From a virus (lineage: Duplodnaviria; Heunggongvirae; Uroviricota; Caudoviricetes): 64,000 bases of DNA. Shown here in pieces: positions 1-61,676 of the stretch. A program made the position numbers and the translations under genes. A model generated the notes under the pieces. The model saw only the letters and a program-made list of their open reading frames with translations, had not been told where the DNA came from and searched no databases. Every line of letters begins with the position of its first letter. Positions within the stretch are counted from its first letter, which is position 1. The DNA lies in IMG/VR virus record IMGVR_UViG_3300013383_000018; one strand, written 5' to 3'.

Positions 1-219
1 GCGCCGGGTGTTCCGGCGGCGTCGCCCCGGCTTTCAGCTTCTAATCTGTGTATCAAAAGCATCAGCACCACGGAAGTGGTGCAAGATAAAACAACAACCA
101 CTGAGGCAATCGCTTCAGTGGTTTTTATGTCCACAACGGCTCCAACCTCCTCGTGGTGTGGGCGGATAGTCGCAAGACGAACTAATAGGGGTACATTTGA
201 AATCAAGGAGTACATACAC

Positions 220-618
220 ATGGCAAAAGTAACTATTACGGGTCGCGCGGTTGTTATCACTTCCGCAATGAAGCTTGAGGACATCAAGACCATCGAGAAG
301 TATCGTCCCAAGGAGCTTGTCCTGAAGGGCGGCGAGGATGGTAAGGAGCCCATCTTCGGCATTGGCACCACTAACGGCGCGGGCAACATCAACACTGTGG
401 GCGCATCTTTTGATGCTGAGACCCATAACGACGACAAGCTGGCGTGCATCACCCTGTTCCTCGACGGTGTTACCGGCGATGTGAAGGAGTGGGTCGCTGA
501 CCGCCTCGGCGCTGCCATCATCAACCTCAACAAGCTCGAAGAGAAGCTCCCCGCTGTCCTCGAAGAGATTGCGGCTGAGAAGGCAACCGTGATGAGCAAC
601 ATCACCGTCGCTCAGTAA
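220..618 (+). CDS. hypothetical protein (130 aa), first gene of a well-expressed operon
   Basis: ATG at 220 is 8 nt downstream of AAGGAG. The longer ORF from 76 has no RBS. A strong intrinsic terminator follows. Confidence 0.6.
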   Translation: MAKVTITGRAVVITSAMKLEDIKTIEKYRPKELVLKGGEDGKEPIFGIGTTNGAGNINTVGASFDAETHNDDKLACITLFLDGVTGDVKEWVADRLGAAIINLNKLEEKLPAVLEEIAAEKATVMSNITVAQ

Positions 619-631
619 GAGACACCGCAAC

Positions 632-660
632 GGGGCGGCATAGCCGCCCCACCATTTTTC
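632..660 (+). terminator. rho-independent terminator
   Basis: Hairpin GGGGCGGC-ATA-GCCGCCCC followed by a T run. Confidence 0.7.
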
Positions 661-693
661 AAGAATTAAAAACGAATAAAAGGAGAATACATA

Positions 694-921
694 ATGATTA
701 AGGTTACTGTCGGCAACAATGTCAAGCGTGAGGCTGTCATCATCGACGAGAACACCACCCTGCGTTCCTGCCTTGAGGCGAACGGTGTTGACTACACCCG
801 TGGTGTCATGCACCTCGACGGTTCTTCCCTGAACCCCGGCGACCTCGATAAGACCTTCCAGCAGTTCGGTATCACCGAGAAGTGCTTCCTGCTGAATGTC
901 GTCAAGGCGGATAACGCCTAA
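694..921 (+). CDS. small beta-grasp / ubiquitin-like (ThiS/MoaD-like) protein, 75 aa, no C-terminal GG
   Basis: RBS AAAAGGAG. Begins MIKVTV and has an LDGSSLNPGDLDKTFQQFGI segment that resembles the ubiquitin/MoaD fold pattern. C-terminus is KADNA. Confidence 0.45.
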   Translation: MIKVTVGNNVKREAVIIDENTTLRSCLEANGVDYTRGVMHLDGSSLNPGDLDKTFQQFGITEKCFLLNVVKADNA

Positions 922-932
922 GTTCCAACTTC

Positions 933-961
933 AGAGCCGCCCTTTATGGGCGGCTCTTTTC
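933..961 (+). terminator. rho-independent terminator
   Basis: Hairpin AGAGCCGCCC-TTTAT-GGGCGGCTCT followed by TTTT. Confidence 0.7.
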
Positions 962-978
962 ATGGGGAATTGGTGGAA

Positions 979-2568
979 ATGGAAGACACAACAGATTTAA
1001 GTCCTGTTGGCGGATGCCGTATCGGTTCAAGTCCGATATTCCCCACCAAGATAAAAATGAATAGAGGTGTTTCTGTGTTCAAGACAAGTATTGCATCGAC
1101 ACCGTTTACGTCGGAAGCAGCCAATAGTTATTTCCAGAACATTACCGGAGATTACTACGGTGGTGATTGTTCATTCCTTTCAACGCTTCGTGCACTGGTC
1201 GCACCTCGAATCAAAGAGGGCGAAAGTGTTTATCTGACTTTCGGTTCGTCAAATTACAATAGTAACGCTATCAATAGCGTTTCGGCGGAACGTGCGGTTG
1301 GTGCTATTTGTAGCAGATATCGAATGGATGACAGCGGCGTTCTTATGGTTCACAGCTTTAATGCTGACCAGAGCAGTAATCTGACCTGTATGCAGATTAT
1401 TGAGAAGAACTTCACGTCAGTGTACCCTGAATATCATCGGCTTGATAAAGTCAAAGCATTTTACCGTAAGTCATTCAACGTTGACTGTTACATCAACCCA
1501 GACAAGAAATCGGTAATCGTCTTCGTTGATAACCTCGATATCAAGAAGATGCATTACCTGCAGGTGTCTATCCTTGCATTTATGCCGTGGTATCTGAATC
1601 AGGATGACGGTTTGACAGAGGACGAACTTGCACTGATGCAATCTCTGCGTGAGACGAATTCTGCAAACTATGAGAAGTATATCTCAAAACTCGGCGAAGG
1701 ATACGATTTCAGAACAGCACGGATTCGTCAGTTGCTGGGTGATTTTGAAACCAGATACGAACGCATGGAATGCGATTCCGTCCGCAATGAAATTGTGTCG
1801 ATTGATGATGAAATCCAGCGGCTCAATGATGCCATCGGCGCGTATCTATCACGGCGCAATGACAAGTGCATCAAGCTGATGGGGCTTGAGCAGAGAATTG
1901 CCGAAGGCGGCGGAGACTCCGAAATCATGGAGTATTTCCTTTGTAACAACCGCCTTGTCCTTTCTCGGGTGAGCAATACAGATATGTATTTCTCGGTCAA
2001 AGATTATCTCGAATACTTTGATAGAGAGATGGCTGAACGGTCAATCAACAACAGGAATAGCTACATTTATCGACCGGACGGTGGTGCTGGTCACAATGCA
2101 GCAGCGTCAGAGAAGATGCAGAAGCTGATGCGAGAGATTTTTGTGAGCGAAAATCCGCGCCTGAGAATCCGTTTCTGCGCAGCGTATAGATTCGACCTGA
2201 ATGGTAGCGTTTCCCCGCAGACCGGCGACTTTTCTGATTACACATTCGACGGTTATATGCCCAATACACACATCGACCGGTTCCATTGTATGGGCAATTA
2301 CCTCAGAACTATCAATGAGCTGTTGAGACAGAGAAATTATATTGGAGCCCTTGAGCAGTGTATTGCATCCTGTAAGAGTCTGAACTTCGGTGACAGTGCA
2401 GTTATGGGCGAGTTTATGAAAACGATGTGGTCGAACGGTTCGGTCAGTCGTTGTATCGAATTGCCAGATGGTCGTGTTGTAAAGCCGAATGAGGCAATCA
2501 GATGGCTTGAAGAACAGGAGGCACAGAATGGGCAGGCGGAGGAGGCGCAAAATGAGCAGACCAATTAA
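979..2568 (+). CDS. large hypothetical protein (about 530 aa) with a coiled-coil segment; start uncertain (979 or 1057)
   Basis: Long ORF. ATG 946 lies inside the terminator hairpin. ATG 979 is preceded by GGTGG. No recognised motif. Confidence 0.5.
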   Translation: MEDTTDLSPVGGCRIGSSPIFPTKIKMNRGVSVFKTSIASTPFTSEAANSYFQNITGDYYGGDCSFLSTLRALVAPRIKEGESVYLTFGSSNYNSNAINSVSAERAVGAICSRYRMDDSGVLMVHSFNADQSSNLTCMQIIEKNFTSVYPEYHRLDKVKAFYRKSFNVDCYINPDKKSVIVFVDNLDIKKMHYLQVSILAFMPWYLNQDDGLTEDELALMQSLRETNSANYEKYISKLGEGYDFRTARIRQLLGDFETRYERMECDSVRNEIVSIDDEIQRLNDAIGAYLSRRNDKCIKLMGLEQRIAEGGGDSEIMEYFLCNNRLVLSRVSNTDMYFSVKDYLEYFDREMAERSINNRNSYIYRPDGGAGHNAAASEKMQKLMREIFVSENPRLRIRFCAAYRFDLNGSVSPQTGDFSDYTFDGYMPNTHIDRFHCMGNYLRTINELLRQRNYIGALEQCIASCKSLNFGDSAVMGEFMKTMWSNGSVSRCIELPDGRVVKPNEAIRWLEEQEAQNGQAEEAQNEQTN

Positions 2569-3484
2569 GTTAACGCAGGAACTCATTGACGAGTGTCGTC
2601 AGGATTTTGAGAAGGCTTTGTCTCTCACAAAGCTTTCGGACGGTAAGCTTTCTTTTACCAAAGCGTTTTCGTGCGGTGACAAAAAAGCGGTGGTCTACTT
2701 CAGCACAGAAGCATGGGCAAAGATGGTTATGCTCATCAAGGAGTTCGATAAAGAGGTGGCGTGGCATGGCGTTGCACGCCGAGTCGAAGACGAATCGCTC
2801 GACGAATATGTCATCGACGATATCGTTGTCTACCCGCAGGAAGTAACCGGTTCGACAGTCGAGATGGATACAGAGAAGTACGCTCTGTGGATTCAGGAAA
2901 ACATTGAAGATGAACGCTTCAATCACATCTATATGCAGGGGCACTCCCATGTAAATATGGGTACGTCGCCATCATCCGTTGACCTCAACCATCAGGAGGA
3001 AATTCTTGGGATGCTTGGTGATGACGACTTCTACATCTTTATGATTTGGAACAAGTCGCTTGCAAGTACAAACAAAATCTATGACCTCAAGAAGAATGTG
3101 ATGTTCGAAGATAAAGACATCACCGTCAAGATTGTCGGTCAGAACGAAGGTCTTGATGAGTTCATCAAGAACGCGAAGGATATGGTAAAGTCCAAGCCTT
3201 ATGTGTATGGCGGTCAGAACGGATACGGCGGTTACTACAATCAGGGGTACAGAGGCGCTCCGGCTGGCGCTCCGTACAATCCGCTTGCAGGCAAGACTGA
3301 CGATAAGAAGGACGAGAAAAAGGACGATAAAAAAGACAATTCATCTGGGAAGAAGAACAATGACGAGAAACCCAGAACCAGAATCGGTGCCGGTTGGCAT
3401 GGGCGAAATGCCTGCCAAGAAACGATGCAGGGCTGGGAGGATGAAGAGGACTACGACCCTTATACATACTTAGGAGGTAAGTAA
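2552..3484 (+). CDS. JAB/MPN (JAMM) metalloprotease, deubiquitinase-like, with disordered KD-rich C-terminal tail
   Basis: Exact JAMM motif HSHVNMGTSPSSVD (HxHx7Sx2D) with an upstream Glu. GGAGG RBS before ATG 2552. The long upstream extension is unlikely. Confidence 0.8.
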   Translation: MSRPIKLTQELIDECRQDFEKALSLTKLSDGKLSFTKAFSCGDKKAVVYFSTEAWAKMVMLIKEFDKEVAWHGVARRVEDESLDEYVIDDIVVYPQEVTGSTVEMDTEKYALWIQENIEDERFNHIYMQGHSHVNMGTSPSSVDLNHQEEILGMLGDDDFYIFMIWNKSLASTNKIYDLKKNVMFEDKDITVKIVGQNEGLDEFIKNAKDMVKSKPYVYGGQNGYGGYYNQGYRGAPAGAPYNPLAGKTDDKKDEKKDDKKDNSSGKKNNDEKPRTRIGAGWHGRNACQETMQGWEDEEDYDPYTYLGGK

Positions 3485-3485
3485 T

Positions 3486-4163
3486 ATGGCGATTGACCTG
3501 TCAAAGAGCTATGAATATTTTCAGCCTGAGAAGGTTGATTGCAGAATCCATATCGTCGGGTGTGGGTCTGTCGGTGCGACGATTGCGGAACTGTTGGTTC
3601 GCTTGGGTCTCACGAACATCGCACTGTGGGACATGGATACGGTAAGCCCGCACAATCTGGCAAATCAGATTTTCCGACAGCAGGACATCGGGCGCTCTAA
3701 GGTCGAGGCGCTGGCAGATATCCTTTTCGATATCAATCCTGATGTCAAGGGCAGTCTGAAACTGTACAAGGATGGGTGGAACGGGCAGCAGATGTCTGGC
3801 TATGTGTTCTTGTGCGTTGACAACATCGAGCTGAGAAAACAGATTGTCGAAAAACACTTCGACAATCCGTATGTAAAGGCGATGTTTGACTTCAGAACCT
3901 TGCTGGAGGCAGGTCAGCACTATGCTGCTGATTGGTCTGACTACAAGATGAAGAAAGACTTCCTCAATTCCATGAACTTTACGCACGATGAAGCGGCGGA
4001 AGAAACTCCCGTTTCAGCCTGCGGCATTACGCTTGGCGTTGTAACCACGGTCAGAGCGATTTGTGCTTTGGGAGTGAGTAACTTCGTCAAGTACATCAGG
4101 GGCAAGGGCTTAAACAAGCTGATTATCTGCGACGCATTCCAGCCGCTGCTGGATGCGTTTTAA
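3486..4163 (+). CDS. E1-like ubiquitin-activating enzyme (ThiF/MoeB family)
   Basis: Rossmann GxGxxG loop IVGCGSVGA. ATP-binding Asp (WDMDTVSPHNLANQ). LCVDNIELRKQIV matches the ThiF DCTDN motif. ACGITLGVVTT active-site region. Confidence 0.8.
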   Translation: MAIDLSKSYEYFQPEKVDCRIHIVGCGSVGATIAELLVRLGLTNIALWDMDTVSPHNLANQIFRQQDIGRSKVEALADILFDINPDVKGSLKLYKDGWNGQQMSGYVFLCVDNIELRKQIVEKHFDNPYVKAMFDFRTLLEAGQHYAADWSDYKMKKDFLNSMNFTHDEAAEETPVSACGITLGVVTTVRAICALGVSNFVKYIRGKGLNKLIICDAFQPLLDAF

Positions 4164-4193
4164 TTTTCAAAAAGAACGAAGGGAGGGTAAGGT

Positions 4194-5000
4194 ATGGACA
4201 CGACCGTTGGTGCCCTCAAAGTTGGTACACAACTTGTGATGGGCAAGTACGGTGTGGACAAAGACAGCCCGCACCCGATTGTTTGGTTGAAAGGTAATCC
4301 AAACTGTGATTTTATCACAGAAAAAGCTATCGACTACTTGTGCTTCGATGCGGCGGAAGAGGCTGGACATTATAGGTACGTTAATAATGCGAAATATCCA
4401 GTGTCCAATCTGTTTTCGTTCTTAAACAGTGACCAGATGATGTGGTATCACGCAATGCACGACAACGATGCTTCACCCGGTGCTTTTGCAAGACATAGCT
4501 ATGCTCGCTATGAAGACCACTATGGGTTCTTGTATTTCTTTGAAGACTATGAGGTTGCTTCTTTGGTCAGAAAAGAATATGCAGTCGGAGAAAGTCAAGT
4601 GTCATCGTTGATTCGCCTGCCATCAGTCGCAGACATTTTTAGTCTCCAAGATGGACGACGCTTTGACTTGTTCAAAAGGAAAGGCATCCGTCCGAATCCG
4701 ACAGCCGACTTGTTTGACCTAAAAGCTCGTTATGCAGGGCTCGATTCAGAACGTGGATTTGTGAGTTTCTGGCTGTTGGACGACGTTGAGACCGAAAGAG
4801 CAGCGATTGCCAACCGTTCCGGTATGTTAGACAGGCTGACAGCATCAAGCTGCGCTGGGGTAAGACCAGTGTGTACTTTGAGCTCTGACACAATTGTCGA
4901 ACAGCGAGGTGATGGCGCGTTTTCTATTAAACCCTTCGCATCTCAGAATGTCTTTACGGATGAAGAGCTATTTGAATTATTAGGCATGGCGCAGCCTTAA
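4194..5000 (+). CDS. hypothetical protein (268 aa), last gene of the Ubl/JAB/E1 operon
   Basis: RBS GGGAGGG. No recognised motif. Confidence 0.6.
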   Translation: MDTTVGALKVGTQLVMGKYGVDKDSPHPIVWLKGNPNCDFITEKAIDYLCFDAAEEAGHYRYVNNAKYPVSNLFSFLNSDQMMWYHAMHDNDASPGAFARHSYARYEDHYGFLYFFEDYEVASLVRKEYAVGESQVSSLIRLPSVADIFSLQDGRRFDLFKRKGIRPNPTADLFDLKARYAGLDSERGFVSFWLLDDVETERAAIANRSGMLDRLTASSCAGVRPVCTLSSDTIVEQRGDGAFSIKPFASQNVFTDEELFELLGMAQP

Positions 5001-5036
5001 TGCGCCACAGACTGTAACGGATTTTCTCGTAAGAGA

Positions 5037-5090
5037 GCTTTACGCCAAAGGCTAAAGTAACAAATTGTCGGAGAGGAAAACCCTCCGGGA
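5037..5090 (+). repeat. structured hairpin element copy 1 (GCTTTAcGCC-AAA-GGCTAAAGT plus GAAAAC hairpin)
   Basis: Member of a 4-copy family with compensatory stem changes. Lies 37 nt after the stop of the 268-aa gene. Confidence 0.55.
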
Positions 5091-5377
5091 GATGACGCGG
5101 CATCAGTGCGAGCAGCTCGGTAGCCCAGAAGCGACGGCAGCATGACACGGAACCAACCGAATGTCAAGCCCCCCTCGCCAAGACCCAATACAAGAACTGT
5201 ATGTACTAACACCAACCCATGTATTTTCAGGCGAAACGACTACTGAACAATAATTTCGCATCTCACATCCCGCAAGCATCATCTCTCACACTGACGACTC
5301 AGTCTTCAGACTCAAGGAATTCTGGAAGCAGCAGACATATGTAGGTTACAGTTAGTTATTGGACAAGGAGGTAAGAA

Positions 5378-6514
5378 ATGGTCTATATCACTGTTAGGCA
5401 GTCACCGATTTATCACCAGATGACACTGGAAGAGTACCTGTTTCAAAACTATCAGACGCCTCCAGTTGTCAATGCCAATATTGCAAACACAAGAACATAT
5501 GAGGTTGAAAGTGTTAGTGAACATTTTTCCAGCAAGATTGGTGTAGAAACCTTAATCGGAAAACTCGTTCGATTTAATAATGATACGGCAGAGCTTCGTG
5601 CAAAGGAACGGAGCGAGTTGTATGAGACTTTTTATATCCCCAAAAAATCTGGCGGTCTTCGCAGAATTGATGCGCCAAAGGCAGAACTGATGGATGCGCT
5701 GAGAAGACTCAAAACGATTTTCGAGGATGATTTCCATGCACTCTATCATACTGCTGCGTTTGCTTATGTAAAGAAGCGGAGTACAGTCGATGCGGTTAAG
5801 CGCCACCAAAAGAACAGCAGCAAATGGTTCGCAAAGCTTGACCTGCACGATTTCTTTGGCAGCACAACGCTGGACTATGCCATCTCAATGTTCTCGATGG
5901 TCTTTCCTTTTAGCGAGATTGTAAAAGAGCCGCAGGGTGAAGAAGCATTGCGGACGGCTATGTCATTAGCGTTCTTAAACGGTGGACTACCGCAGGGCAC
6001 TCCAATTTCACCGCTTATCACGAATGTGATGATGATTCCGGTTGATTTCAAGCTGTCGAATACGCTCCGCAACTTTGAAAAACAGAGCTTCATTTATACC
6101 AGATATGCAGATGATTTCATCATTTCATCCAAGTATGATTTTGATGTTCGTTCTGTTGAAGAGCTGGTAGTAAGTACATTGAGCAGCTTTGGTGCTCCGT
6201 TTACAATCAATGCAAGCAAGACTCGGTATGGTTCATCAGCGGGGCGCAACTGGAATCTTGGCGTTATGCTGAATAAGGACAACGAGATTACGGTCGGTCA
6301 TAAAAAGAAAAAGCAGTTCCAGTCGATGCTGTACAACTACATCACAGATAAGAACAATGGTGTTGCTTGGGAACGGAATGATGTACAGGTAATGTATGGT
6401 CTGCATAGCTATTATCGCATGGTCGAAAAGGAAACCATTGACGCAATTGTAGCTTACATTAACAAGAAAATGAATGTGGATGTAATCCGCATGATGAAGG
6501 ACGACTTGCGGTAA
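5378..6514 (+). CDS. reverse transcriptase (compact, retron/DRT/DGR-type; no endonuclease domain)
   Basis: RT motifs FYIPKKSGGLRRI (motifs 1-2), KLDLHDFFGS (A), GLPQGTPISPLITNV (B'), YTRYADDFIISS (YADD, C). RBS AAGGAGG. Confidence 0.9.
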   Translation: MVYITVRQSPIYHQMTLEEYLFQNYQTPPVVNANIANTRTYEVESVSEHFSSKIGVETLIGKLVRFNNDTAELRAKERSELYETFYIPKKSGGLRRIDAPKAELMDALRRLKTIFEDDFHALYHTAAFAYVKKRSTVDAVKRHQKNSSKWFAKLDLHDFFGSTTLDYAISMFSMVFPFSEIVKEPQGEEALRTAMSLAFLNGGLPQGTPISPLITNVMMIPVDFKLSNTLRNFEKQSFIYTRYADDFIISSKYDFDVRSVEELVVSTLSSFGAPFTINASKTRYGSSAGRNWNLGVMLNKDNEITVGHKKKKQFQSMLYNYITDKNNGVAWERNDVQVMYGLHSYYRMVEKETIDAIVAYINKKMNVDVIRMMKDDLR

Positions 6515-6562
6515 CGTCTATAAATAACCCGCAATCCTGTAATGCATAATTGCGAAAGCAAT

Positions 6563-6618
6563 GCTTATCGCCAAAGGCATAAGTAACAACTTGATGGGAG
6601 GGAAAACCTCCCCGGAGG
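6563..6618 (+). repeat. structured hairpin element copy 2 (GCTTATcGCC-AAA-GGCATAAGT plus GGGAGG-GAAAA-CCTCCC)
   Basis: About 55-nt paralogue of copy 1, including the second GAAAA-loop hairpin. Lies 48 nt after the RT stop. Confidence 0.55.
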
Positions 6619-6687
6619 CGCATTCACCTGCAGCCTCCAGACATCCCTCATCGCCGGAAGCCGTACAGCAACAGCCCGAAGCTGCCT

Positions 6688-6712
6688 GAATCCATTGTGG
6701 CACAATGGATTC
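6688..6712. promoter_or_regulatory. 25-bp perfect palindrome GAATCCATTGTG-g-CACAATGGATTC
   Basis: 12-bp perfect inverted repeat with a 1-nt spacer. A third half-site GAATCCATTGT lies at 6988-6998. Confidence 0.5.
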
Positions 6713-6843
6713 AAAGCGCCGGAGCAGGATACTGCACGCCAGCCACTGGGCACCGGAGCTCCTCCTCGTGAGGTGTTACCTCCATGTAGATTACAGGATA
6801 ATCAAATTATCATTTGCAGTGAATAACATTTCGTAAGGAATGT

Positions 6844-6865
6844 GCTTCACGCCAAAGGCTGAAGT
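6844..6865 (+). repeat. structured hairpin element copy 3 (GCTTCAcGCC-AAA-GGCTGAAGT)
   Basis: Same conserved loop and flank, compensatory stem pair. Confidence 0.5.
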
Positions 6866-7115
6866 ATCACTTTGCTGGACAGCACGATTCCCCGCCCGCA
6901 GCCTGCTGCGAAGGCGCCTAAGCTTGTTGTACAGCGCATTAAAACTATTCTGGATATCTCACCACCTTTATCTGATGAGCAACAGTTGAATCCATTGTCT
7001 CCCAATGATGCCATCATCGCCACTTGAGATTTGAACTCGCTTTCAGCTCATCCAAATCTCTTGGATACAGGAGATAAAAGAAGAGACCAGAACAGAATAT
7101 ACATATGGACTGCAG

Positions 7116-7814
7116 ATGAGAAAGGAACTAAGCATGATTTACGTCACAGGAGACACACACGCGAACATTGATATAGCCAAGCTTAATACAACAAGGTTCC
7201 CACAGCAAAAGGAATTGACGAAGAATGATTTCGTAATCATCTGCGGAGATTTTGGACTCTGCTGGGACGGTTCGCATCGAGAGATGTGGTGGCAAGACTG
7301 GCTGACGGCGAAAAACTTCACGACACTTTGGATTGATGGCAACCACGAGAACTTTGATATGCTCTACCAGTTCCCGTTAATTGACAAATTCGGCGGGAAG
7401 GTGCGCGAAATCGCTCCTGACATCTATCATCTGGACAGAGGGCAAGTGCTCACGATTGATGGAAAGAAAATCTTCTGCATGGGCGGTGCTCGTTCGGTTG
7501 ATAAAGAGTATCGTGTGGAACACATCTCATGGTGGAAAGAGGAAATGCCGTCCAGAGAAGAAATGGAACGCGCGATTGCAACGCTCGAACAAAATAATTG
7601 GTGCGTTGACTATGTGATTACACATTGTGCACCAAGGAGAATTCAGACTCTGCTCGCAAGCTGGTACGAGAATGACCCGATGGTCAGCTTTTTGGATAGG
7701 GTTTGCTCTGACCTCACATTCAAGCGATGGTTCTTCGGACATTATCATGTGGACAAGCAGGTCAATGAGCAATTTATTGCTCTGTATAATAAAGTAATCC
7801 CGATGGAGTGGTAA
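7116..7814 (+). CDS. calcineurin-like metallophosphoesterase
   Basis: Motifs VTGDTHA, ICGDFG, IDGNHE, GHYH. Start may be 7134 (MIYVTGD). Confidence 0.8.
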   Translation: MRKELSMIYVTGDTHANIDIAKLNTTRFPQQKELTKNDFVIICGDFGLCWDGSHREMWWQDWLTAKNFTTLWIDGNHENFDMLYQFPLIDKFGGKVREIAPDIYHLDRGQVLTIDGKKIFCMGGARSVDKEYRVEHISWWKEEMPSREEMERAIATLEQNNWCVDYVITHCAPRRIQTLLASWYENDPMVSFLDRVCSDLTFKRWFFGHYHVDKQVNEQFIALYNKVIPMEW

Positions 7815-7894
7815 GCCTAACGGTAAGGCAGCGGTTTGCTAAACCGTGAGTAATCCGAAAGGATGTGCAGGTTCAAGTCCTGTCCACTCCGCCA
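7805..7894 (+). tRNA. tRNA-Ser (anticodon GCU), type II with long variable arm, encoded CCA
   Basis: Acceptor GGAGTGG/CCACTCC, anticodon loop TTGCTAA, long variable arm, T-loop TTCAAGT. The 5' end overlaps the stop codon of the preceding CDS. Confidence 0.8.
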
Positions 7895-7970
7895 AGGGGT
7901 GTGGTGTAACGGCTAACACAGCGGTCTCCAAAACCGTCAGATGGTGGTTCGAATCCATTCACCCCTGCCA
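7895..7970 (+). tRNA. tRNA-Trp (anticodon CCA), encoded CCA
   Basis: Acceptor AGGGGTG/CACCCCT, anticodon loop CTCCAAA, T-loop TTCGAAT. Confidence 0.8.
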
Positions 7971-8156
7971 GTTGTTGGGTAGCTCCCAACTGATGTGAGC
8001 GATTATCGGCTTACCTCACAAAGAATGAAAATGCTCGCTGAAAACTGCGCTTGTCTTGATGCGTCAAGACCGGTTTGACCTGACGGAATAGGGGCTACGA
8101 CTTTTCGGAGCGTAGTTGCCGGTAGCGTGTGACAATCTAAGCGAGAAGCCGACCAT

Positions 8157-8233
8157 GCGGCGTTGGTGTTCAACGGTTAGCACTCCGGTCTTCCAAACCG
8201 GTGGTGCCAGTTCGAGTCTGGTACGCCGCTCCA
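8157..8233 (+). tRNA. tRNA-Gly (anticodon UCC), encoded CCA
   Basis: Acceptor GCGGCGT/ACGCCGC, anticodon loop CTTCCAA, T-loop TTCGAGT. Confidence 0.8.
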
Positions 8234-16694: not shown

Positions 16695-17969
16695 ATGGAA
16701 GAGATAGCGATTGTTCGCTGTTTGCAGAGCGCAAGCGGCGCAATTAGTAAAATGCGGGTCTTACAAGCCTTCAAAGATGTTGAGAATTTCCGTAAGATTT
16801 TGTACTATGCTTTGAATCCAATGCTAACGTACAAGATTTCGGAACAAACACTGCGAACGCCTGTCGAGTACGACCCAACAATTACAATCACGATGACCGA
16901 CATCTTCGAAATCTGTGAGCTGCTATCAAAGCGAAAAGCATTGGATGCAGCAACCGTGTATCAAGTGCGAGTTTTCGTGCAGTGTTTGACTGACCCGGAA
17001 TCATCCGAGTTTTACATCGAACTTCTGTCAAAGACACTTCGGTTGGGTGTCACAGCGAAAACTGTGAACAAGGTTATCCCCGGATTGATTCCCGAATGGG
17101 AGGTTCAGCAAGCATATCCAATTGACAAATATCCAATCAAGGAAGGCACGGAGTTTTGGCTCACTCAAAAACTGAATGGTGTCAGGGCAACATACTACAA
17201 AGGGCAACTGTTCGCAAGAAGCGGAGTTCCCTACGAAGGGCTTGGACATATTCTGGACGCGCTCAAAATCGACGAGAACGATAGCTATGTTTTTGACGGA
17301 GAGCTTACCCTACGAGATAAAGGCGAACTGTCTGATAATGAGGCGTTCCGCAAGGCAACGGGCATTATCAACTCAGAAGACACTGATAAAACGGCAGTTT
17401 GCTACACCATCTTCGATGTGCTGACAACAGAAGAGTTCGATGGTGGTGTCAGCGAGGGCGGTTATGGGTATCGCAGGTCTTTCTTAGACCAGCTTCATCG
17501 TTTCATTCCGCAAGATGGTCGAGTCAACATCCTCCCTGTTCTGTACCACGGTAGTGACCAGACAAAAATCGACGAACTCTTAGAGCAAATGGTTCGGGAG
17601 GATAAAGAGGGGCTGATGGTCAACTTCGATGTCCCCTATAAGCGAAAGCGTCACAATGGAATCCTCAAAGTCAAACGCTTCTACACTATGGATTTGCGTA
17701 TCTTGCGTTGCGAAGAAGGAAGCGGTAGGCTTGCAGGAACGTTGGGCGCCTTTGTGCTTGATTATAAAGGCAACGAAGTGAATGTCGGGTCAGGGTTCTC
17801 CGACGAACAACGTGCAGCTTTTTGGGCGGCTAAAGATGAAATGCCCGGACGGTTGTGCGAGGTAAAATACAAGGAAATATCGTATGACAAGAACACCGGT
17901 GCTGAGAGTTTGCAGTTCCCGGTGTTTATTACTATCCGAACAGACAAAGACGAGGTCAGCTACGGCTGA
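16695..17969 (+). CDS. ATP-dependent polynucleotide ligase (probable DNA ligase)
   Basis: Nucleotidyltransferase motif I variant KLNGVR. Length and C-terminal OB-like region. Confidence 0.6.
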   Translation: MEEIAIVRCLQSASGAISKMRVLQAFKDVENFRKILYYALNPMLTYKISEQTLRTPVEYDPTITITMTDIFEICELLSKRKALDAATVYQVRVFVQCLTDPESSEFYIELLSKTLRLGVTAKTVNKVIPGLIPEWEVQQAYPIDKYPIKEGTEFWLTQKLNGVRATYYKGQLFARSGVPYEGLGHILDALKIDENDSYVFDGELTLRDKGELSDNEAFRKATGIINSEDTDKTAVCYTIFDVLTTEEFDGGVSEGGYGYRRSFLDQLHRFIPQDGRVNILPVLYHGSDQTKIDELLEQMVREDKEGLMVNFDVPYKRKRHNGILKVKRFYTMDLRILRCEEGSGRLAGTLGAFVLDYKGNEVNVGSGFSDEQRAAFWAAKDEMPGRLCEVKYKEISYDKNTGAESLQFPVFITIRTDKDEVSYG

Positions 17970-20201: not shown

Positions 20202-21287
20202 ATGCGACATTTGGCAACAATCCGTGAGATTGCATCTCTCCACCCGATTGAAGGAGCCGACCGCATTGAAGTTGCGCAGGTCGATGGTTGGGAATGCGTG
20301 GTTCAGAAGGGCGAGTTCCATGTTGGAGAGCATATCGTTTACATTGAGGTCGATTCCATCGTCCCCGAACGTCCTGAGTTCGAGTTCCTGAGAGACAGAA
20401 AGTTCAGAGTTCGCACCATTAAGTTGCGTGGTCAGGTCAGTCAGGGCTTGGTTCTCCCGCTGTCAATCCTCCCGAATGGTACTCCTGCCATTTTGGGCGC
20501 CGATGTAACGGACGCTCTGGGTATTAAGAAGTATGACCCAGAAGCGCAGCAAGAAGCACAGCTCTTGACGAAACAGCCTCAGAAACCGCAGAGCGCAATC
20601 GCTCGTTTCCTGATGCGATTCAAGTGGTATCGCAAGCTGTTTATGAAGCCCAAGCGCAAGGGCGGATTCCCTGACTGGATTGCCAAGACGGACGAGACTC
20701 GCATTCAAAACCTTACGACGCTCTTTGAGATGGAGCGAAACAAGGGAACAAAGTTCTCTGTTACAGAGAAAGTTGACGGGCAGTCAGCGACGTATTACCT
20801 GCGCAAAGTCTCAAAGCGCAAGTATGAGTTCGGTGTTTGCAGCCGAAACATCTACCTTGGCACGCCCGACAACAGCTCCTACTGGACGATTGCACGTCAG
20901 CTCCACATTGAAGATGTGTTGAAGCACCTCATCGGTGATTATGAAACCATCGTTTTACAAGGTGAGATTTGCGGCAACCAGATTCAGGGCAATAAGTACC
21001 ATATCAGTGGGTACGACCTGTTTGCCTTCAACCTGATTTATCCAGACCACAAGTGTGGCACGGCAGAAATCAAGAAGCTGCTTGAGCCGTATGGAATTAA
21101 GACTGTCCCGATTGTTGAAGAGGGCAAGACTTTGCCTGAGACCATCGCTGAGCTGGTCGAGTATTCCAAGGGAAAATCAGTGGTTCGTAAGGAGCAAAAA
21201 CGAGAAGGCGTAGTTATGCGTAATGTCCAGAGCAACATCAGCTTCAAGGTCATCAACCCTGACTTCCTTCTCGCAGAAAAGGACTGA
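20202..21287 (+). CDS. RNA ligase (Rnl-type) with N-terminal tRNA-binding-like OB domain
   Basis: Motif I TEKVDGQS (KxDG). The N-terminal about 100 aa resemble the EMAP/Myf OB fold. Confidence 0.65.
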   Translation: MRHLATIREIASLHPIEGADRIEVAQVDGWECVVQKGEFHVGEHIVYIEVDSIVPERPEFEFLRDRKFRVRTIKLRGQVSQGLVLPLSILPNGTPAILGADVTDALGIKKYDPEAQQEAQLLTKQPQKPQSAIARFLMRFKWYRKLFMKPKRKGGFPDWIAKTDETRIQNLTTLFEMERNKGTKFSVTEKVDGQSATYYLRKVSKRKYEFGVCSRNIYLGTPDNSSYWTIARQLHIEDVLKHLIGDYETIVLQGEICGNQIQGNKYHISGYDLFAFNLIYPDHKCGTAEIKKLLEPYGIKTVPIVEEGKTLPETIAELVEYSKGKSVVRKEQKREGVVMRNVQSNISFKVINPDFLLAEKD

Positions 21288-27218: not shown

Positions 27219-27262
27219 ACGACCGCTTTGTAGATTTGCTGTTATACATATTTCCTTCAGCA

Positions 27263-27284
27263 GCTTTTCGCCAAAGGCAAAAGT
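27263..27284 (+). repeat. structured hairpin element copy 4 (GCTTTTcGCC-AAA-GGCAAAAGT)
   Basis: Same loop and flank, lying 44 nt after a stop codon. Followed by a 12-bp long-range pairing (27304-27315 with 27375-27386) that encloses a terminator. Confidence 0.5.
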
Positions 27285-27315
27285 AAGAATTCGGCACTAT
27301 GCTCGTAAACCAGAA

Positions 27316-29039: not shown

Positions 29040-30122
29040 TTGGAAACAAATAAACAAAATGAGATACGCAATGCTTATGAGCATAGCGCACAAGTCCAGT
29101 GTATTCCCGCTTCGATTAAAAAGACTACTGAGCACAGCGAAGAAGACCCATTGGTGGTCGCGCCGTATTGCAGAGTCAGTACGGACAACAAAGACCAGCT
29201 CGCAAGCTACGAGCTGCAGTGCCAGTATTACAAAGAATATGTGTCGAAGCATCCGGGCTGGCGGCTTTATGACATCTACGCCGATGAAGGGATTTCCGGG
29301 ACTTCCGTAAAGAAACGCACGGACTTCTTACGGATGATTGATGATTGTAAAGCAGGCAAAATCAACATGATTATCGTGAAGAACATTGCAAGGTTCGCAC
29401 GAAATGTTGTTGACTGCGTTGCCACTGTGCGTATGCTCAAGGCACTGGACAAGCCGGTCGCTGTTTATTTTGAGGATATTGCAATCAATACCTTGACACA
29501 GACCGGCGAGCTTCTGATGGTCGTTATGGCTGCTATCGCACAAGGCGAGTCAGAAGCAAAGTCTGAGAGCGTGAAATGGGGATTCCAGAAAAGATTTGAG
29601 AAGGGGCTCCCAAAGCTCGCAGACCTCTATGGGTACACCAGAGATAAGAGGTCGCTGGAGATTTACGAGCCTGAAGCGAATGTTGTGCGGCTGATTTATC
29701 AAATGTTCTACGATGACAGAACGATTCCTGAAATCTGTTACATCTTAAACCAGCAAGGTATCCCGTCCCCACGAGGTGGTCAGTGGACATACTCTACGGT
29801 AAAGGCAATCTTGACAAATGAGAAATATTCCGGTGACGTTTTGATGCAGAAGACCGTTACCGTTGATATCTTTTCGCATCGCTCTATTCGGAACGACGGA
29901 CGTGCTAACCAGTTTTTTATCCAAGGTTATCACAAAGCAATTATTCCGAGAGAACTTTGGCTTGAAGTGCAACAGATTCTAAAGGGTGAAAATGTTGTTC
30001 CGGTTCCATCAGTTGATGAGGTGGCAGATTTGTCTGCATCTGATGTCCCTCGGATATTAGATGGCTTTTTTGTAATTAAACCTCGAAAGGATGGAAACAA
30101 TGAGTATCTTAGACAACTTTGA
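29040..30122 (+). CDS. serine recombinase (resolvase catalytic domain plus recombinase domain; no zinc ribbon); TTG start
   Basis: Catalytic YCRVSTDNKDQ. Recombinase-domain pattern GGQWTYSTVKAILTNEKYSG. Confidence 0.8.
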   Translation: METNKQNEIRNAYEHSAQVQCIPASIKKTTEHSEEDPLVVAPYCRVSTDNKDQLASYELQCQYYKEYVSKHPGWRLYDIYADEGISGTSVKKRTDFLRMIDDCKAGKINMIIVKNIARFARNVVDCVATVRMLKALDKPVAVYFEDIAINTLTQTGELLMVVMAAIAQGESEAKSESVKWGFQKRFEKGLPKLADLYGYTRDKRSLEIYEPEANVVRLIYQMFYDDRTIPEICYILNQQGIPSPRGGQWTYSTVKAILTNEKYSGDVLMQKTVTVDIFSHRSIRNDGRANQFFIQGYHKAIIPRELWLEVQQILKGENVVPVPSVDEVADLSASDVPRILDGFFVIKPRKDGNNEYLRQL

Positions 30123-32650: not shown

Positions 32651-32747
32651 TGGCTTGAATCACTTGTGCCACAAGGCTTTGAAAGGCGCTTGATGAGTGG
32701 TATTAGTGCATCATATAAAACAAAAGGAGTGGTCACTTGTGATTTAC

Positions 32748-61543: not shown

Positions 61544-61550
61544 TTTCTTG

Positions 61551-61676
61551 CAATGTTTCTTTGCCGCACATTGTGAAGCGTTTTTGCATAAGCGATGTTT
61601 CTTTGCCGCACACCGCGAAGCGTCCTTGCATAAACAATGTTTCTTTGCCGCACATTGTGAAGCGTTTTTGACGAAA
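61551..61676 (-). ncRNA. toxI: type III antitoxin RNA: three tandem 42-nt direct repeats (ToxI-like)
   Basis: Repeat units start at 61551, 61593 and 61635 and share TGTTTCTTTGCCGCACAttGtGAAGCGTttTTGcATAA. Located between the promoter and the terminator upstream of toxN. Confidence 0.75.

What the first reader, a model, noticed from the sequence alone, without database searches (positions are those of the whole stretch)
694..5000. Phage-encoded ubiquitin-like / JAB deubiquitinase / E1 cassette in a strongly expressed operon
**Seen in sequence:**
- The operon is 220-5000.
- It has two intrinsic terminators after its first two small genes.
- It has strong RBSs throughout.
- A 75-aa protein has a ubiquitin/MoaD-like pattern and no GG end.
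- The next ORF has an exact JAMM motif, HSHVNMGTSPSSVD, and a disordered KD-rich tail ending LGGK.
- The ORF after that is a ThiF/MoeB-type E1 with the GCGSVGA Rossmann loop and the DCTDN-like motif.
- A 530-aa protein and a 268-aa protein of unknown function are co-transcribed.

**Established knowledge:**
- E1 plus JAB plus Ubl triads define bacterial ubiquitin-like conjugation systems: the Bil-type anti-phage systems and CBASS Cap2/Cap3.
- They also define sulfur-carrier systems: CysO/MoeZ/Mec and TtuB/TtuC.

**Inference:**
- A phage encoding its own E1 and JAB could do one of three things:
  - conjugate a Ubl to a phage or host target;
  - reverse host Ubl conjugation as a counter-defence, for example against CBASS or Bil;
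  - run a sulfur relay for tRNA thiolation.
- The tRNA-thiolation option is attractive because this phage also carries IscS, many tRNAs and tRNA repair enzymes.

No E2 is evident.
Basis: partly seen in the sequence, partly recalled or inferred. Interest (0 to 1): 0.8.

Follow-up and report, generated by a model that had tools for sequence, protein, structure and literature searches.

The report
Phage ubiquitin-like tagging cassette with retron
A gut phage carries what looks like a complete ubiquitin-like protein-tagging kit (tag, activating enzyme, probable carrier enzyme, trimming protease), inherited together with a retron-type reverse transcriptase and its RNA, a combination I found described nowhere.

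Summary
- The 75-aa protein is predicted with good confidence to be a ubiquitin/SUMO-like beta-grasp.
- The next-but-one ORF has an intact JAMM site.
- The 225-aa ORF is a minimal ThiF/E1 domain.

Three corrections change the picture.
1. The "530-aa" ORF swallows a tRNA-Leu gene. The real protein (497-503 aa) has a C-terminal UBC/RWD-like domain. Its only near-invariant residues across 56 homologues are His405, Cys411 and Gly413. It is the probable missing E2.
2. The 75-aa Ubl ends K-x-D-(N/G)-A, followed in relatives by 0-4 variable residues, by another Ubl copy, or by a fused copy of the upstream 132-aa protein. These are ubiquitin-style precursors that imply JAB processing.
3. The block p132-Ubl-E2-JAB-E1 is followed by a structured ncRNA and a retron-type reverse transcriptase in 50 of 55 informative genome loci. 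Flanking genes differ between loci, and the RT has co-diverged with the cassette (r about 0.8).

Sulfur transfer is disfavoured. No tested definition of Bil, Bub, CBASS or PRTRC is met. Targets and biological role are unknown. My best reading is a phage-borne Ubl conjugation cascade coupled to a retron. I rate it a new variant of known kinds, of high interest.

The parts
220..618 (+). p132: 132-aa protein with no detectable family. It is the obligate partner of the Ubl and a candidate substrate or co-factor.
   Evidence: It is always adjacent to p75. In other phages it is fused in frame after p75, with junction ...KADNA|A... Copy numbers are 1:1 even when duplicated. No Pfam, NCBIfam, PHROG, PADLOC or PDB match was found.
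632..650 (+). Intrinsic-terminator-like hairpin after p132.
   Evidence: -18.5 kcal/mol, z -4.4.
694..921 (+). p75: ubiquitin-like beta-grasp protein, with conserved C-terminus K-A-D-(N/G)-A.
   Evidence: AF2 pLDDT is 88.5 with a bbabb(a)b topology. Foldseek top hits are SUMO, Ub, NEDD8 and BilA. The profile against PDB gives ubiquilin UBL and SAMP2 as top hits. Precursor-like tails, tandem copies and fusions are seen in relatives.
933..957 (+). Second terminator-like hairpin, after p75.
   Evidence: -25.1 kcal/mol, z -6.6.
964..1048 (+). tRNA-Leu(UAA), lying inside the mechanically called 540-aa ORF.
   Evidence: ARAGORN; Rfam tRNA at 47 bits.
1075..2568 (+). p503 (497 aa from GTG 1075, or 503 aa from ATG 1057): N-terminal domain, long helix, and a C-terminal UBC/RWD-like domain. 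It is the probable E2. The active-site motif PNTHIDRFHCMG lies at 2260-2295 (His405 at 2269-2271, Cys411 at 2287-2289).
2552..3484 (+). JAB/JAMM metalloprotease (310 aa). Glu68 is at 2753-2755 and H-S-H-x7-S-x2-D at 2942-2983. The C-terminal third is a variable low-complexity tail.
   Evidence: The profile against PDB hits only Rpn11, E 0.0036, with the motif aligned. PADLOC JAB scores E 0.004. Catalytic residues are at least 97% conserved.
3486..4163 (+). Minimal single-domain E1-like adenylating enzyme (225 aa). GxGxxG is at 3558-3575 and the crossover-loop Cys179 at 4020-4022. The canonical NxxRQ motif is NLANQ here.
   Evidence: Pfam ThiF 6e-24. PDB matches: Uba1 4e-17, UBA5 3e-15, MoeB 6e-14. 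Conservation is given.
4194..5000 (+). p268: optional accessory gene (weak DUF6273 match; PHROG 'Hoc-like').
   Evidence: It is present in only a subset of related cassettes.
5009..5355 (+). Structured ncRNA copy 1, retron msr/msd-like. A closing stem pairs ACUGUAAC (5011-5018) with GUUACAGU (5345-5352). It has an invariant G5019, two covarying 5' hairpins and a variable long hairpin.
5378..6514 (+). Retron-type reverse transcriptase (378 aa, YADD intact).
   Evidence: PADLOC RT_II-A 5e-46. NCBIfam retron St85 scores 175.6 bits, below its 235 cut-off. It lies next to the cassette in 50 of 55 loci and has co-diverged with it.
6535..6609 (+). 5' module of ncRNA copy 2; the unit runs to about 6815.
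   Evidence: CM R1 at 84 bits; alignment.
6812..6890 (+). 5' module of ncRNA copy 3; the unit runs to about 7110.
   Evidence: CM R1 at 68 bits; alignment.

Best explanation
The region encodes a self-contained, phage-borne ubiquitin-like protein-conjugation cascade. It is genetically coupled to a retron-type reverse transcriptase and its ncRNA.

**Proposed mechanism**
1. p75 is the modifier. It is made in excess, from a strong RBS and between its own terminators, as a capped precursor ending ...D-(N/G)-A.
2. The JAMM protease trims the cap. In other phages it trims 1-4 extra residues, the next Ubl repeat, or the fused p132. It can probably also reverse conjugates.
3. The minimal E1 adenylates the exposed C-terminus and takes it onto Cys179.
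4. The Ubl passes to Cys411 of the UBC-like C-terminal domain of p503.
5. The large N-terminal domain of p503 is the likely target-recognition part. It delivers the Ubl to protein targets.
6. p132 is always present 1:1 with the Ubl. It is the most likely partner or principal substrate.
7. The ncRNA/RT unit that follows the E1 is part of the same inherited module. It most likely supplies a retron-style msDNA-RT complex that senses or gates the cascade.

**Shown here**
- Folds, motifs and residue conservation.
- Precursor architectures.
- Synteny and co-divergence.

**Inferred**
- Every enzymatic step.
- The exact cleavage site.
- The targets.
- Any RT-Ubl cross-talk.
- The biological role. The phage is temperate, and the role could be inter-virus or host conflict, or control of its own cycle.
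For: **Ubl fold**
- AF2 pLDDT is 88.5, and all top Foldseek PDB hits are SUMO, Ub, NEDD8 or BilA.
- The sequence profile against PDB puts ubiquilin UBL, SAMP2 and PF1061 on top.

**Precursor logic**
- Of 53 stand-alone copies, 27 end KADNA and 15 end KADGA. 24 stop at the Ala and the rest carry 1-4 variable residues.
- Tandem di-Ubls and Ubl-p132 fusions occur.
- E. aridi BilA likewise carries a Gly97-Ala98 cap that is removed by its JAB (PMC10557695).

**JAB**
- The intact E...HSH...S..D motif is at least 97% conserved.
- Rpn11 is the only PDB family hit.

**E1**
- It is ThiF-fold, and Uba1, UBA6 and UBA5 are the best PDB matches.
- GxGxxG, Asp49, Lys72, Asp112 and Cys179 are conserved.

**E2**
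- The gene order Ubl-E2-JAB-E1 equals BilA-D and BubAB-CD (PMC11601596).

**Module**
- The same order is found in 44 of 45 complete genome loci, at E1 identities down to 42%.
- Flanks of four distant loci share nothing with the 64-kb window.
- The loci fall into 14 flank-context groups.

**RT coupling**
- The RT lies within 3.5 kb of the E1 in 50 of 55 loci. In L092 it sits between JAB and E1.
- The ncRNA sits directly after the E1 even where the RT is displaced or missing from the locus (L101, L099, L107).
- RT distances track cassette distances as well as cassette genes track each other: r 0.81-0.85, and 0 of 999 Mantel permutations reached the observed value.

**Related E1-Ubl-E2 sets elsewhere**
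- Obscuribacterales chromosomes carry a poly-Ubl ending ...RGN.
- Cultured Xanthomonas/Erwinia jumbo phages carry a Ubl ending ASGG.
Against: - No biochemical step is tested.
- E2 status also rests on two weak pairwise hhalign scores.
- Whole-protein Foldseek, the HMM against PDB, Pfam, and direct hhalign of the p503 C-domain against E2s found nothing.
- The Ubl lacks the near-universal C-terminal Gly in most copies.
- The E1 lacks the canonical Arg of NxxRQ (it has Asn60), so adenylation could be impaired or unusual.
- RT linkage could be co-inheritance within one phage lineage rather than function. 30 of 45 loci fall into one single-linkage context group.
- The distant bacterial and jumbo-phage relatives have no RT.
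- p132 has no recognisable fold or conserved Lys, so its role is a guess.
Confidence: 0.6

Rival explanations
1. There are two independent neighbours. The Ubl cascade is real, but the retron-type RT/ncRNA is merely a linked gene set inherited with it in one phage lineage, with no functional connection.
For: - 30 of 45 loci share some flanking genes, by single linkage.
- The distant bacterial and jumbo-phage E1-Ubl-E2 sets work without an RT.
- The RT is displaced by 6-7 kb in L101 and L146 and is missing within 7-9 kb in L099 and L107.
Against: - The block persists at E1 identities down to 42% and p503 mean pairwise identity of about 24%, while local flanks change.
- In L092 the RT lies between JAB and E1.
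- The ncRNA stays glued to the E1 3' end even when the RT has moved.
- Co-divergence with the RT (r 0.81-0.85) equals that among the cascade genes themselves.
Confidence: 0.25
2. It is a sulfur-carrier system. p75 is a ThiS/MoaD/TtuB-like carrier, thiocarboxylated by the E1 for tRNA or cofactor thiolation, and the JAB matures it.
For: - E1 + beta-grasp + JAB triads do this in the CysO/MoeZ/Mec and QbsE systems (established knowledge; PMC1779556).
- The window holds a class-V aminotransferase at 32697-33911, together with many tRNA and tRNA-repair genes.
Against: - There is no Gly-Gly end.
- The E1 has no rhodanese domain and no CxxC zinc site.
- All thiamine, molybdopterin and MoeZ NCBIfam scores are far below their cut-offs: 72 against 159, 47 against 377, 33 against 647.
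- No ThiG, MoaE, TtuA, MnmA or CysM-like partner is found in any of about 100 cassettes.
- The aminotransferase is 28 kb away and was not seen next to the cassette in the distant loci compared (L038, L046, L049, L078).
- The E2-like Cys enzyme, the p132 fusions and the RT would be left unexplained.
Confidence: 0.06
3. It is a counter-defence module that works by deconjugation or decoy. The JAB strips host Bil or CBASS-type conjugates, or the phage Ubl/E1 competes with host systems, and the cassette is not a productive conjugation cascade.
For: - The JAB has weak similarity to CBASS Cap3-type JAB (E 0.004), and the E1 N-terminus resembles Cap2.
- The cassette sits among early and auxiliary genes of a phage.
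Against: - A lone protease would suffice for deconjugation.
- Instead the Ubl, E1 Cys, E2-like Cys and precursor architectures are all conserved over deep divergence.
- The Ubl precursors point to a cognate substrate for the JAB.
Confidence: 0.1
4. It performs processing or chaperoning only, or an MccB-like C-terminal chemistry. In the first version the Ubl is a cleavable folding or assembly chaperone for p132, as in lambda TAPI/gpK. In the second, the E1 modifies the C-terminal Asn (succinimide or nucleotidylation, as MccB does on MccA) and nothing is transferred to other proteins. In either case p503 is not an E2.
For: - Ubl-p132 fusions exist, and stoichiometry is 1:1.
- The conserved Asn at or near the C-terminus is also present in the bacterial relatives, which end ...RGN.
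- The E1 lacks the canonical Arg.
- Sequence evidence for an E2 is weak.
Against: - 15 of 53 copies have Gly in place of the Asn, and the jumbo-phage relative ends GG. The Asn side chain is therefore dispensable.
- Cys179 in the E1 crossover loop is conserved, and the His/Cys/Gly triad in a UBC/RWD-like fold is near-invariant.
- In the window p132 and p75 are separate genes, so no chaperone fusion is needed.
Confidence: 0.1

Closest known systems
BilABCD (bacterial ISG15-like) ubiquitination systems, types I and II
   Same: - The gene order is the same: Ubl-E2-JAB-E1.
- The JAB pre-processes the Ubl; E. aridi BilA has a Gly-Ala cap.
- The E1 and E2 are Cys-based.
- There is no E3.
   Different: - The E1 here is a single 225-aa adenylation domain, not IAD-AAD-CYS.
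- The Ubl ends D-(N/G)-A rather than Gly.
- The E2 is about 500 aa, with a large N-domain and a coiled coil.
- There is an extra obligate partner, p132.
- The system is encoded by a phage.
- It is linked to a retron RT and ncRNA.
Bub (6E/DUF6527) pathways
   Same: - The Ubl is made as a fusion precursor that the JAB cleaves.
- The E1 is a minimal homodimeric-type domain.
- Multi-beta-grasp Ubls occur.
   Different: - Bub works through Ser/Tyr oxyesters and lacks catalytic Cys. Here Cys is conserved in both enzymes.
- There are no Ubl-E2 or JAB-E1 fusions here.
- There is no DUF6527 protease.
Type II CBASS Cap2/Cap3
   Same: The E1 N-terminal half scores against Cap2 models (3.7e-17), and the JAB scores weakly against the Cap3-type JAB model (0.004).
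   Different: - There is no E2-E1 fusion.
- The neighbourhood has no CD-NTase or effector.
- A dedicated Ubl is present.
Retrons (the RT is most similar to type II-A / St85-like)
   Same: - The RT carries retron-type HMM similarity.
- An adjacent structured ncRNA is closed by inverted repeats, with an invariant G after the 5' arm.
- Accessory genes sit next to it.
   Different: - The score is below the curated St85 cut-off.
- Several ncRNA copies occur per locus.
- The neighbours are a five-gene Ubl cascade, not a known effector class.
- The module is conserved within phage genomes.
- msDNA production is untested.
Eukaryotic ubiquitin precursors (polyubiquitin, Ub-ribosomal-protein fusions)
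   Same: Head-to-tail Ubl repeats, Ubl fused in frame to an unrelated small protein, and short C-terminal caps all require protease maturation (established knowledge).
   Different: The sequence families are unrelated, the C-terminal motif differs, and the processing enzyme is a JAMM protease.
ThiS/ThiF, MoaD/MoeB, CysO/MoeZ/Mec and TtuB/TtuC sulfur carriers
   Same: They combine a beta-grasp protein, a ThiF-fold E1 and sometimes a JAB.
   Different: There is no GG end, no sulfurtransferase or target enzyme, and scores below the family cut-offs. An E2-like component is also present.
Uncharacterised relatives found here: Obscuribacterales chromosomal clusters and Xanthomonas/Erwinia jumbo-phage cassettes
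   Same: - They share the same E1 clade, with HN(I/L)xNQ and the crossover Cys.
- An E2-like protein with a P-H-(V/I/M)-...-G-x-x-C-L-G motif is adjacent.
- Adjacent Ubl(s) are present.
   Different: - The bacterial sets add a second E2-like paralogue, a ClpB-like AAA+ protein and a radical SAM enzyme, and have no RT.
- The jumbo-phage sets have a GG-ended Ubl and a Cys-rich tail on the E2-like protein, and have no JAB and no RT.

Membership tests
BilABCD | [quoted passage not shown] | tested here: not met
   The E1 is 225 aa with one ThiF domain covering residues 18-208. The candidate Cys lies in the crossover loop itself.
BilABCD | Ubl whose reactive C-terminal residue is Gly, exposed by the JAB | tested here: inconclusive
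   The motif is D-(N/G)-A: Asn in 27 and Gly in 15 of 53 copies. The cleavage site is unknown.
BilABCD | UBC-fold E2 with a catalytic Cys and a nearby His | tested here: inconclusive
BilABCD | JAB/JAMM peptidase with an intact active site | tested here: met
Bub (6E) | Ser/Tyr oxyester chemistry (no catalytic Cys), Ubl-E2 and JAB-E1 fusions, and the DUF6527 protease | tested here: not met
   Cys179 and Cys411 are conserved, the genes are separate, and no DUF6527 hit was found.
Type II CBASS (Cap2/Cap3) | E2-E1 fusion Cap2 with an adjacent CD-NTase and effector | tested here: not met
   Only residues 18-88 of the E1 match the Cap2 models. No CD-NTase or effector appears in the Pfam or PADLOC scans of the neighbours.
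Sulfur-carrier systems (ThiF/MoeB/MoeZ/TtuC with ThiS/MoaD/CysO/TtuB) | Carrier ending Gly-Gly, an E1 reaching the family cut-off, and an adjacent sulfur-acceptor enzyme | tested here: not met
   No partner enzymes are present in the cassettes.
PRTRC (ParB-related, ThiF-related cassette) | PRTRC ThiF and proteins A-F reaching the NCBIfam cut-offs | tested here: not met
   PRTRC_ThiF scores 32.5 bits against a cut-off of 144.75. The other proteins give no hits.
Retron | RT of the retron clade | tested here: inconclusive
   The best PADLOC model is RT_II-A at 5e-46. NCBIfam St85 scores 175.6 bits against a 235 cut-off.
Retron | Adjacent ncRNA closed by inverted repeats (a1/a2), with a conserved branching G and an msd hairpin | tested here: met
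   A 9-bp closing stem is kept in 7 of 7 phages. An invariant G follows the 5' arm. The 5' hairpins covary, and the MFE structure has a long internal hairpin.
Retron | Production of branched msDNA | not testable with these tools
   This needs expression and gel or sequencing analysis.

The most novel reading that the evidence does not exclude
This is a new type of retron whose effector arm is a complete ubiquitin-like conjugation cascade, carried by temperate phages of gut Clostridia. The RT-msDNA complex senses or gates, and the cascade then tags proteins with a phage 'ubiquitin' that uses an Asn/Gly-Ala C-terminus and is supplied as ubiquitin-style fusion precursors with p132. It would be both the first full Ubl system assigned to bacterial viruses and the first link between reverse transcription and protein tagging.
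Probability: 0.35. Interest if true: 0.9.

Novelty: new variant of a known kind. Interest (0 to 1): 0.8.

Why it matters
**What is new**
- Bacterial ubiquitination-like pathways (CBASS Cap2/3, Bil, Bub) are so far known as host defences.
- Here an apparently complete cascade sits in phage genomes and is widespread.
  - The Ubl has 498 representative clusters at 50% identity.
  - About 100 cassettes were recovered, mostly on 100-130 kb contigs binned with gut Clostridia.

**Open questions it makes testable**
- How far can E1 chemistry depart from a C-terminal Gly and from the canonical Arg?
- How do E3-less E2s choose their targets?
- Did ubiquitin-style precursor fusions arise independently?
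- Can retron-type RT/ncRNA modules be wired to protein tagging?

**Practical consequences**
- Hundreds of "hypothetical" proteins and "thiamine biosynthesis" annotations in phage genomes could be re-annotated.
- The work defines an ncRNA family that is absent from Rfam.

Tried and rejected
**Searches that found nothing**
- Megablast of 1-8000 against INPHARED phages gave no match.
- Pfam, NCBIfam, PHROGs and PADLOC gave nothing usable for p132, p75 and p503. The only hit was a weak phrog_10 'major head protein' match for p503 (E 5e-4). I rejected it because the window holds replication and tRNA-repair genes and the fold is not capsid-like.
- Whole-protein Foldseek of p503 against PDB gave only noise.
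- The p503 profile against PDB sequences gave nothing.
- The bacterial E2-like profile against PDB and Pfam gave nothing.
- Direct hhalign of the p503 C-domain against three human E2s gave nothing. Only the two-step route through the bacterial homologue gave signal.
- The p132 and p75 profiles show no relation to each other, so p132 is not detectably a second Ubl.
- A diversity-generating retroelement (DGR) reading of p268 + RT was rejected. No template/variable repeat pair was found, and the RT scores as retron-type.
- PRTRC membership was rejected on scores.
- The search for related loci with the diverse Ubl alignment failed because no conserved stretch was available.
- Several distant Ubl representatives lie on contigs too short to show context.

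**A resource limit**

Full report
**1. What is in the sequence**

On the + strand the region reads as follows.
- p132 at 220-618, then a terminator hairpin at 632-650.
- p75 at 694-921, then a terminator hairpin at 933-957.
- tRNA-Leu(UAA) at 964-1048.
- p503 at 1057/1075-2568.
- A 310-aa JAB at 2552-3484.
- A 225-aa E1 at 3486-4163.
- p268 at 4194-5000.
- A 377-nt non-coding stretch.
- A 378-aa reverse transcriptase at 5378-6514.
- About 600 nt of non-coding sequence.
- A metallophosphoesterase, then a run of eight tRNA genes.

Further points.
- Every gene has a strong Shine-Dalgarno sequence.
- The mechanically called 540-aa ORF runs through the tRNA gene. Homologues start at the equivalent of GTG 1075, which has its own RBS.
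- The rest of the window is a replication, nucleotide and tRNA-repair region. It holds RtcB, NAMPT, DNA and RNA ligases, a CCA-adding enzyme, Thg1, DnaB, a primase, a DNA polymerase, NrdD and two integrases.
- No near-identical phage is in GenBank/INPHARED.
- IMG/VR holds 36 related contigs of 50-133 kb with the same gene order.

**2.

*p75.*
- With a 91-sequence alignment, AlphaFold2 gives pLDDT 88.5. The topology is beta-beta-alpha-beta-beta-(short alpha)-beta with a flexible tail.
- The 50 best Foldseek PDB hits are almost all ubiquitin-family modifiers or UBL domains: SUMO, ubiquitin, NEDD8, UBX-like and other UBL domains, and the bacterial Ubl BilA (TM 0.54-0.72 among those hits).
- A sequence profile of the family against PDB puts ubiquilin UBL, SAMP2 and the ThiS/MoaD-like PF1061 on top, weakly (E 0.04-0.2).

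*JAB.*
- Glu68, His131, Ser132, His133, Ser141 and Asp144 are at least 97% conserved in 57 homologues.
- The family profile hits only Rpn11 in PDB (E 0.0036), with the JAMM motif aligned.
- The C-terminal third is a variable low-complexity tail, and its LGGK end is not conserved.

*E1.*
- It is a ThiF fold (Pfam 6e-24).
- It is not a member of the thiamine, molybdopterin, MoeZ, TcdA, SAMP-E1 or PRTRC families. All curated cut-offs are missed by a wide margin.
- The best PDB matches are the active adenylation domains of Uba1, UBA6 and UBA5.
- GxGxxG, Asp49, Lys72, Asp112 and the crossover-loop Cys179 (PVSAC) are conserved.
- There is no CxxC zinc site.
- The canonical Asn-x-x-Arg-Gln motif is Asn-x-x-Asn-Gln throughout the clade. 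This is a real departure, and its consequence is unknown.

**3. The missing E2**

*Fold evidence.*
- p503 models at pLDDT 89.6 as an N-terminal alpha/beta domain, a 54-residue helix and a C-terminal alpha/beta domain. The element order of the C-domain is alpha, 4 beta, loop, 3-4 alpha, which is the UBC/RWD order (my reading).

*Conservation evidence.*
- Across 56 homologues with mean pairwise identity about 24%, only three residues are at least 97% conserved: His405, Cys411 and Gly413, in P-N-T-H-I-D-x-x-x-C-M-G.

*Bridging homologues.*
- Distant chromosomal relatives in Obscuribacterales carry the motif as M-N-A-P-H-V-D-A-E-G-K-A-C-L-G-N. A paralogue reads A-P-Y-V-Y-G-D-G-R-I-C-P-D-E-I-L. By eye this is very close to the Ubc13 motif H-P-N-V-D-K-L-G-R-I-C-L-D-I-L (my knowledge).
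- hhalign links the p503 C-domain to the bacterial domain at P 2.5e-5.
- hhalign links the bacterial domain to an alignment of UBE2D2, UBE2N and UBE2I at P 2e-4, placing the Cys on the catalytic Cys.

*Negative results.*
- Direct sequence searches and whole-protein Foldseek were negative.
- I rate the E2 assignment at about 75%.

**4. The Ubl is made as ubiquitin-style precursors and is tied to p132**

- The exhaustive representative search finds 498 clusters.
- Many members are about 205 aa: p75 followed in frame by a p132 homologue lacking its Met, with junction ...KADNA|A-x-I-x-I-x-G.
- Others are tandem di-Ubls.
- One phage locus (L049) reads p132 | p75-p132 | p75-p132 | p75, followed by p503-JAB-E1-RT. 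Others duplicate the p132-p75 pair.
- Among 53 stand-alone copies the C-terminus is KADNA (27), KADGA (15) or close variants. 24 stop at the Ala and the rest add 1-4 unconserved residues.
- One variant ends KADGG-LK.
- The bacterial relatives have three head-to-tail repeats, each ending ...RPVRGN. The jumbo-phage relative ends ASGG.
- Aligning these by eye suggests that residue 74 (Asn or Gly) may be the reactive end and Ala75 a cap. This would match E. aridi BilA, where Gly97-Ala98 is trimmed by its JAB (PMC10557695). Alternatively Ala75 itself is the reactive end. This is inference.
- Either way the architecture demands a C-terminal processing protease. That explains the JAB and argues for a modifier rather than a cofactor carrier.
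- p132 has no detectable family, and no relation to p75 was detected.

**5. The cassette is a module, and the retron-type RT/ncRNA belongs to it genetically**

*Synteny.*
- A scan of one genome per species with an E1 alignment returned 80 loci.
- HMM mapping shows p132-p75-p503-JAB-E1-(p268)-RT in essentially every locus with E1 identity of 42% or more. 44 of 45 complete loci are in the canonical order.
- The RT lies within 3.5 kb of the E1 in 50 of 55 informative loci. It lies 6-7 kb away in two, between JAB and E1 in one (L092), and is not seen within 7-9 kb in two.
- Most loci are on contigs binned with Clostridia (Oscillospiraceae, Acutalibacteraceae, Ruminococcus, Lachnospiraceae, Christensenellaceae).

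*Context and co-divergence.*
- Flanks of four distant loci share nothing with the 64-kb window.
- The 45 loci fall into 14 flank-context groups, although 30 are linked by single linkage.
- Pairwise distances of the RT correlate with those of the E1, JAB, p503 and p132 (r 0.81-0.85) and p75 (r 0.72). Correlations among the cascade genes themselves are 0.72-0.88. For E1 against RT, 0 of 999 Mantel permutations reached the observed value.

*The RT.*
- It has an intact YADD motif and scores best against retron RT models (PADLOC RT_II-A 5e-46). It falls below the curated St85 cut-off.

*The ncRNA.*
- The non-coding DNA on both sides of the RT holds three paralogous copies of a structured element.
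- Each copy has a 5' arm (ACUGUAAC), then an invariant G, then two hairpins with compensatory changes. The second hairpin carries the invariant loop CGCCAAAGGC.
- A variable region of about 250 nt follows and folds as a long hairpin. A conserved 3' arm (GUUACAGU) then pairs with the 5' arm.
- This is the layout of a retron msr-msd RNA (my knowledge). Rfam has no match at gathering thresholds.
- A covariance model of the 5' module finds 59 copies, all on the cassette strand.
  - They typically lie directly after the E1 stop and around the RT.
  - This holds in loci where the RT is displaced (L101) or absent from the fetched stretch (L099, L107).
  - None occur in the bacterial or jumbo-phage relatives.

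**6. Interpretation**

The best-supported reading is a phage-borne Ubl conjugation cascade.
- The JAB matures the Ubl.
- The E1 activates it through Cys179.
- The E2-like p503 carries it on Cys411.
- p132 is the partner or likely substrate.
- The terminators after p132 and p75 plausibly set high modifier and low enzyme levels.

The retron-type unit is part of the same inherited module, but whether it cooperates mechanistically is unproven. The biological role is open. A temperate phage could use the module against competing phages or host factors, much as Bil tags phage structural proteins (as summarised in PMC11601596). It could also use it to control its own cycle.

The other options rank lower.
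- The sulfur-relay option is weak. There is no GG end, no partner enzymes, and family cut-offs are not met. The class-V aminotransferase at 32697-33911 is 28 kb away.
- A pure deconjugation role does not explain the conserved Ubl, E1 Cys and E2-like Cys.

**7. Comparison with known systems, and novelty**

- In gene order and logic the cassette works like Bil.
- In its minimal E1 and fusion precursors it works like Bub.
- It fails tested defining features of Bil (the E1 architecture), Bub (oxyester chemistry, fusions, DUF6527), CBASS (the Cap2 fusion, a CD-NTase), PRTRC and the sulfur-carrier families (see the membership table).
The held library is incomplete, so prior description elsewhere cannot be excluded.
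- I class it as a new variant of known kinds. If the RT coupling is functional, it would amount to a new class of retron.

**8. Limits**

- All functions are inferred from sequence, predicted structure and context.
- The JAB, E1, p132 and p268 were not modelled.
- The E2 call rests on modest scores.
- Many genome loci are MAG contigs whose taxonomic bins may be wrong; some are labelled Prevotella, Alistipes or 'archaeon'.
- The linkage statistics do not fully remove shared ancestry.

Noticed in passing
window 964-1048 (+): A tRNA-Leu(UAA) gene sits between the Ubl gene and p503, inside the mechanically called 540-aa ORF. It is separate from the eight-tRNA array at 7805-9168.
   Followed up: partly
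window 5009-5355, 6535-~6815, 6812-~7110 and 27237-27309 (+): This is a structured ncRNA family that Rfam does not match. It has closing inverted repeats, an invariant G, two covarying hairpins with the loop CGCCAAAGGC, and a variable long hairpin. Three copies flank the RT. A fourth, weaker copy (35.6 bits, E 1.3e-4) lies 20 kb away.
   Followed up: partly
L152 3657-13046 and L158 3335-12334 (Obscuribacterales/Melainabacteria chromosomes; also L148-L161): This is a distant bacterial relative of the cassette. It holds a poly-Ubl with repeats ending ...RPVRGN, a 630-680-aa E2-like protein plus a 303-aa E2-like paralogue, a 386-aa JAB and an E1 with HNIANQ. A ClpB/ClpC-like AAA+ ATPase and a radical SAM enzyme follow, and there is no RT. 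It hints at a Ubl-unfoldase pathway.
   Followed up: partly
L162 2778-6654 (Xanthomonas phage PhiXhv-12, PV764601.1; also Ep026, Ep032, PhiXhv-15 and PhiXhv-16): Cultured 227-kb jumbo phages carry a related E1 (27% identity, HNLPNQ), annotated as 'thiamine biosynthesis protein'. Next to it are a 140-aa protein ending ...AKASGG and an 892-aa protein with IHPHM...GSLCLG and a Cys-rich tail. No JAB or RT was found.
   Followed up: partly
window 61550-61669 (-) and 61989-62099 (-): Rfam matches to Fusobacteriales-1 RNA (91 bits) and drum RNA (90 bits) lie on the minus strand. GC skew turns negative after about 60 kb, just past a Tn916-type tyrosine integrase at 59209-60477. This may be a phage end, an attachment region or a different element.
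   Followed up: no
window 12581-36274: There is a dense tRNA/RNA-repair and NAD-salvage set. It holds RtcB (12581-13786), NAMPT (13995-15485), a PRTase-like protein (11749-12561), a DNA ligase (16695-17969) and an RNA ligase (20202-21287). It also holds a Thg1-like protein (30636-31460), a class-V aminotransferase (32697-33911), RlaP (33916-34938) and a CCA-adding enzyme (34928-36274). A serine integrase sits in the middle at 29040-30122.
   Followed up: no
L002 2834-3493 (just upstream of the window start) and window 4194-5000: The 219-aa protein encoded just before p132 in the parent contig resembles p268 by eye. Both end with a G-V-(A/R)-P motif and look DUF6273-like. The cassette may therefore be bracketed by paralogues of an unknown family.
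   Followed up: no
L049 8317-10654; L099 713-2209; L101 4010-5504: Some phages amplify the modifier genes. L049 reads p132 | p75-p132 | p75-p132 | p75. L099 and L101 read p132-p75-p132-p75. The 1:1 ratio is always kept.
   Followed up: partly
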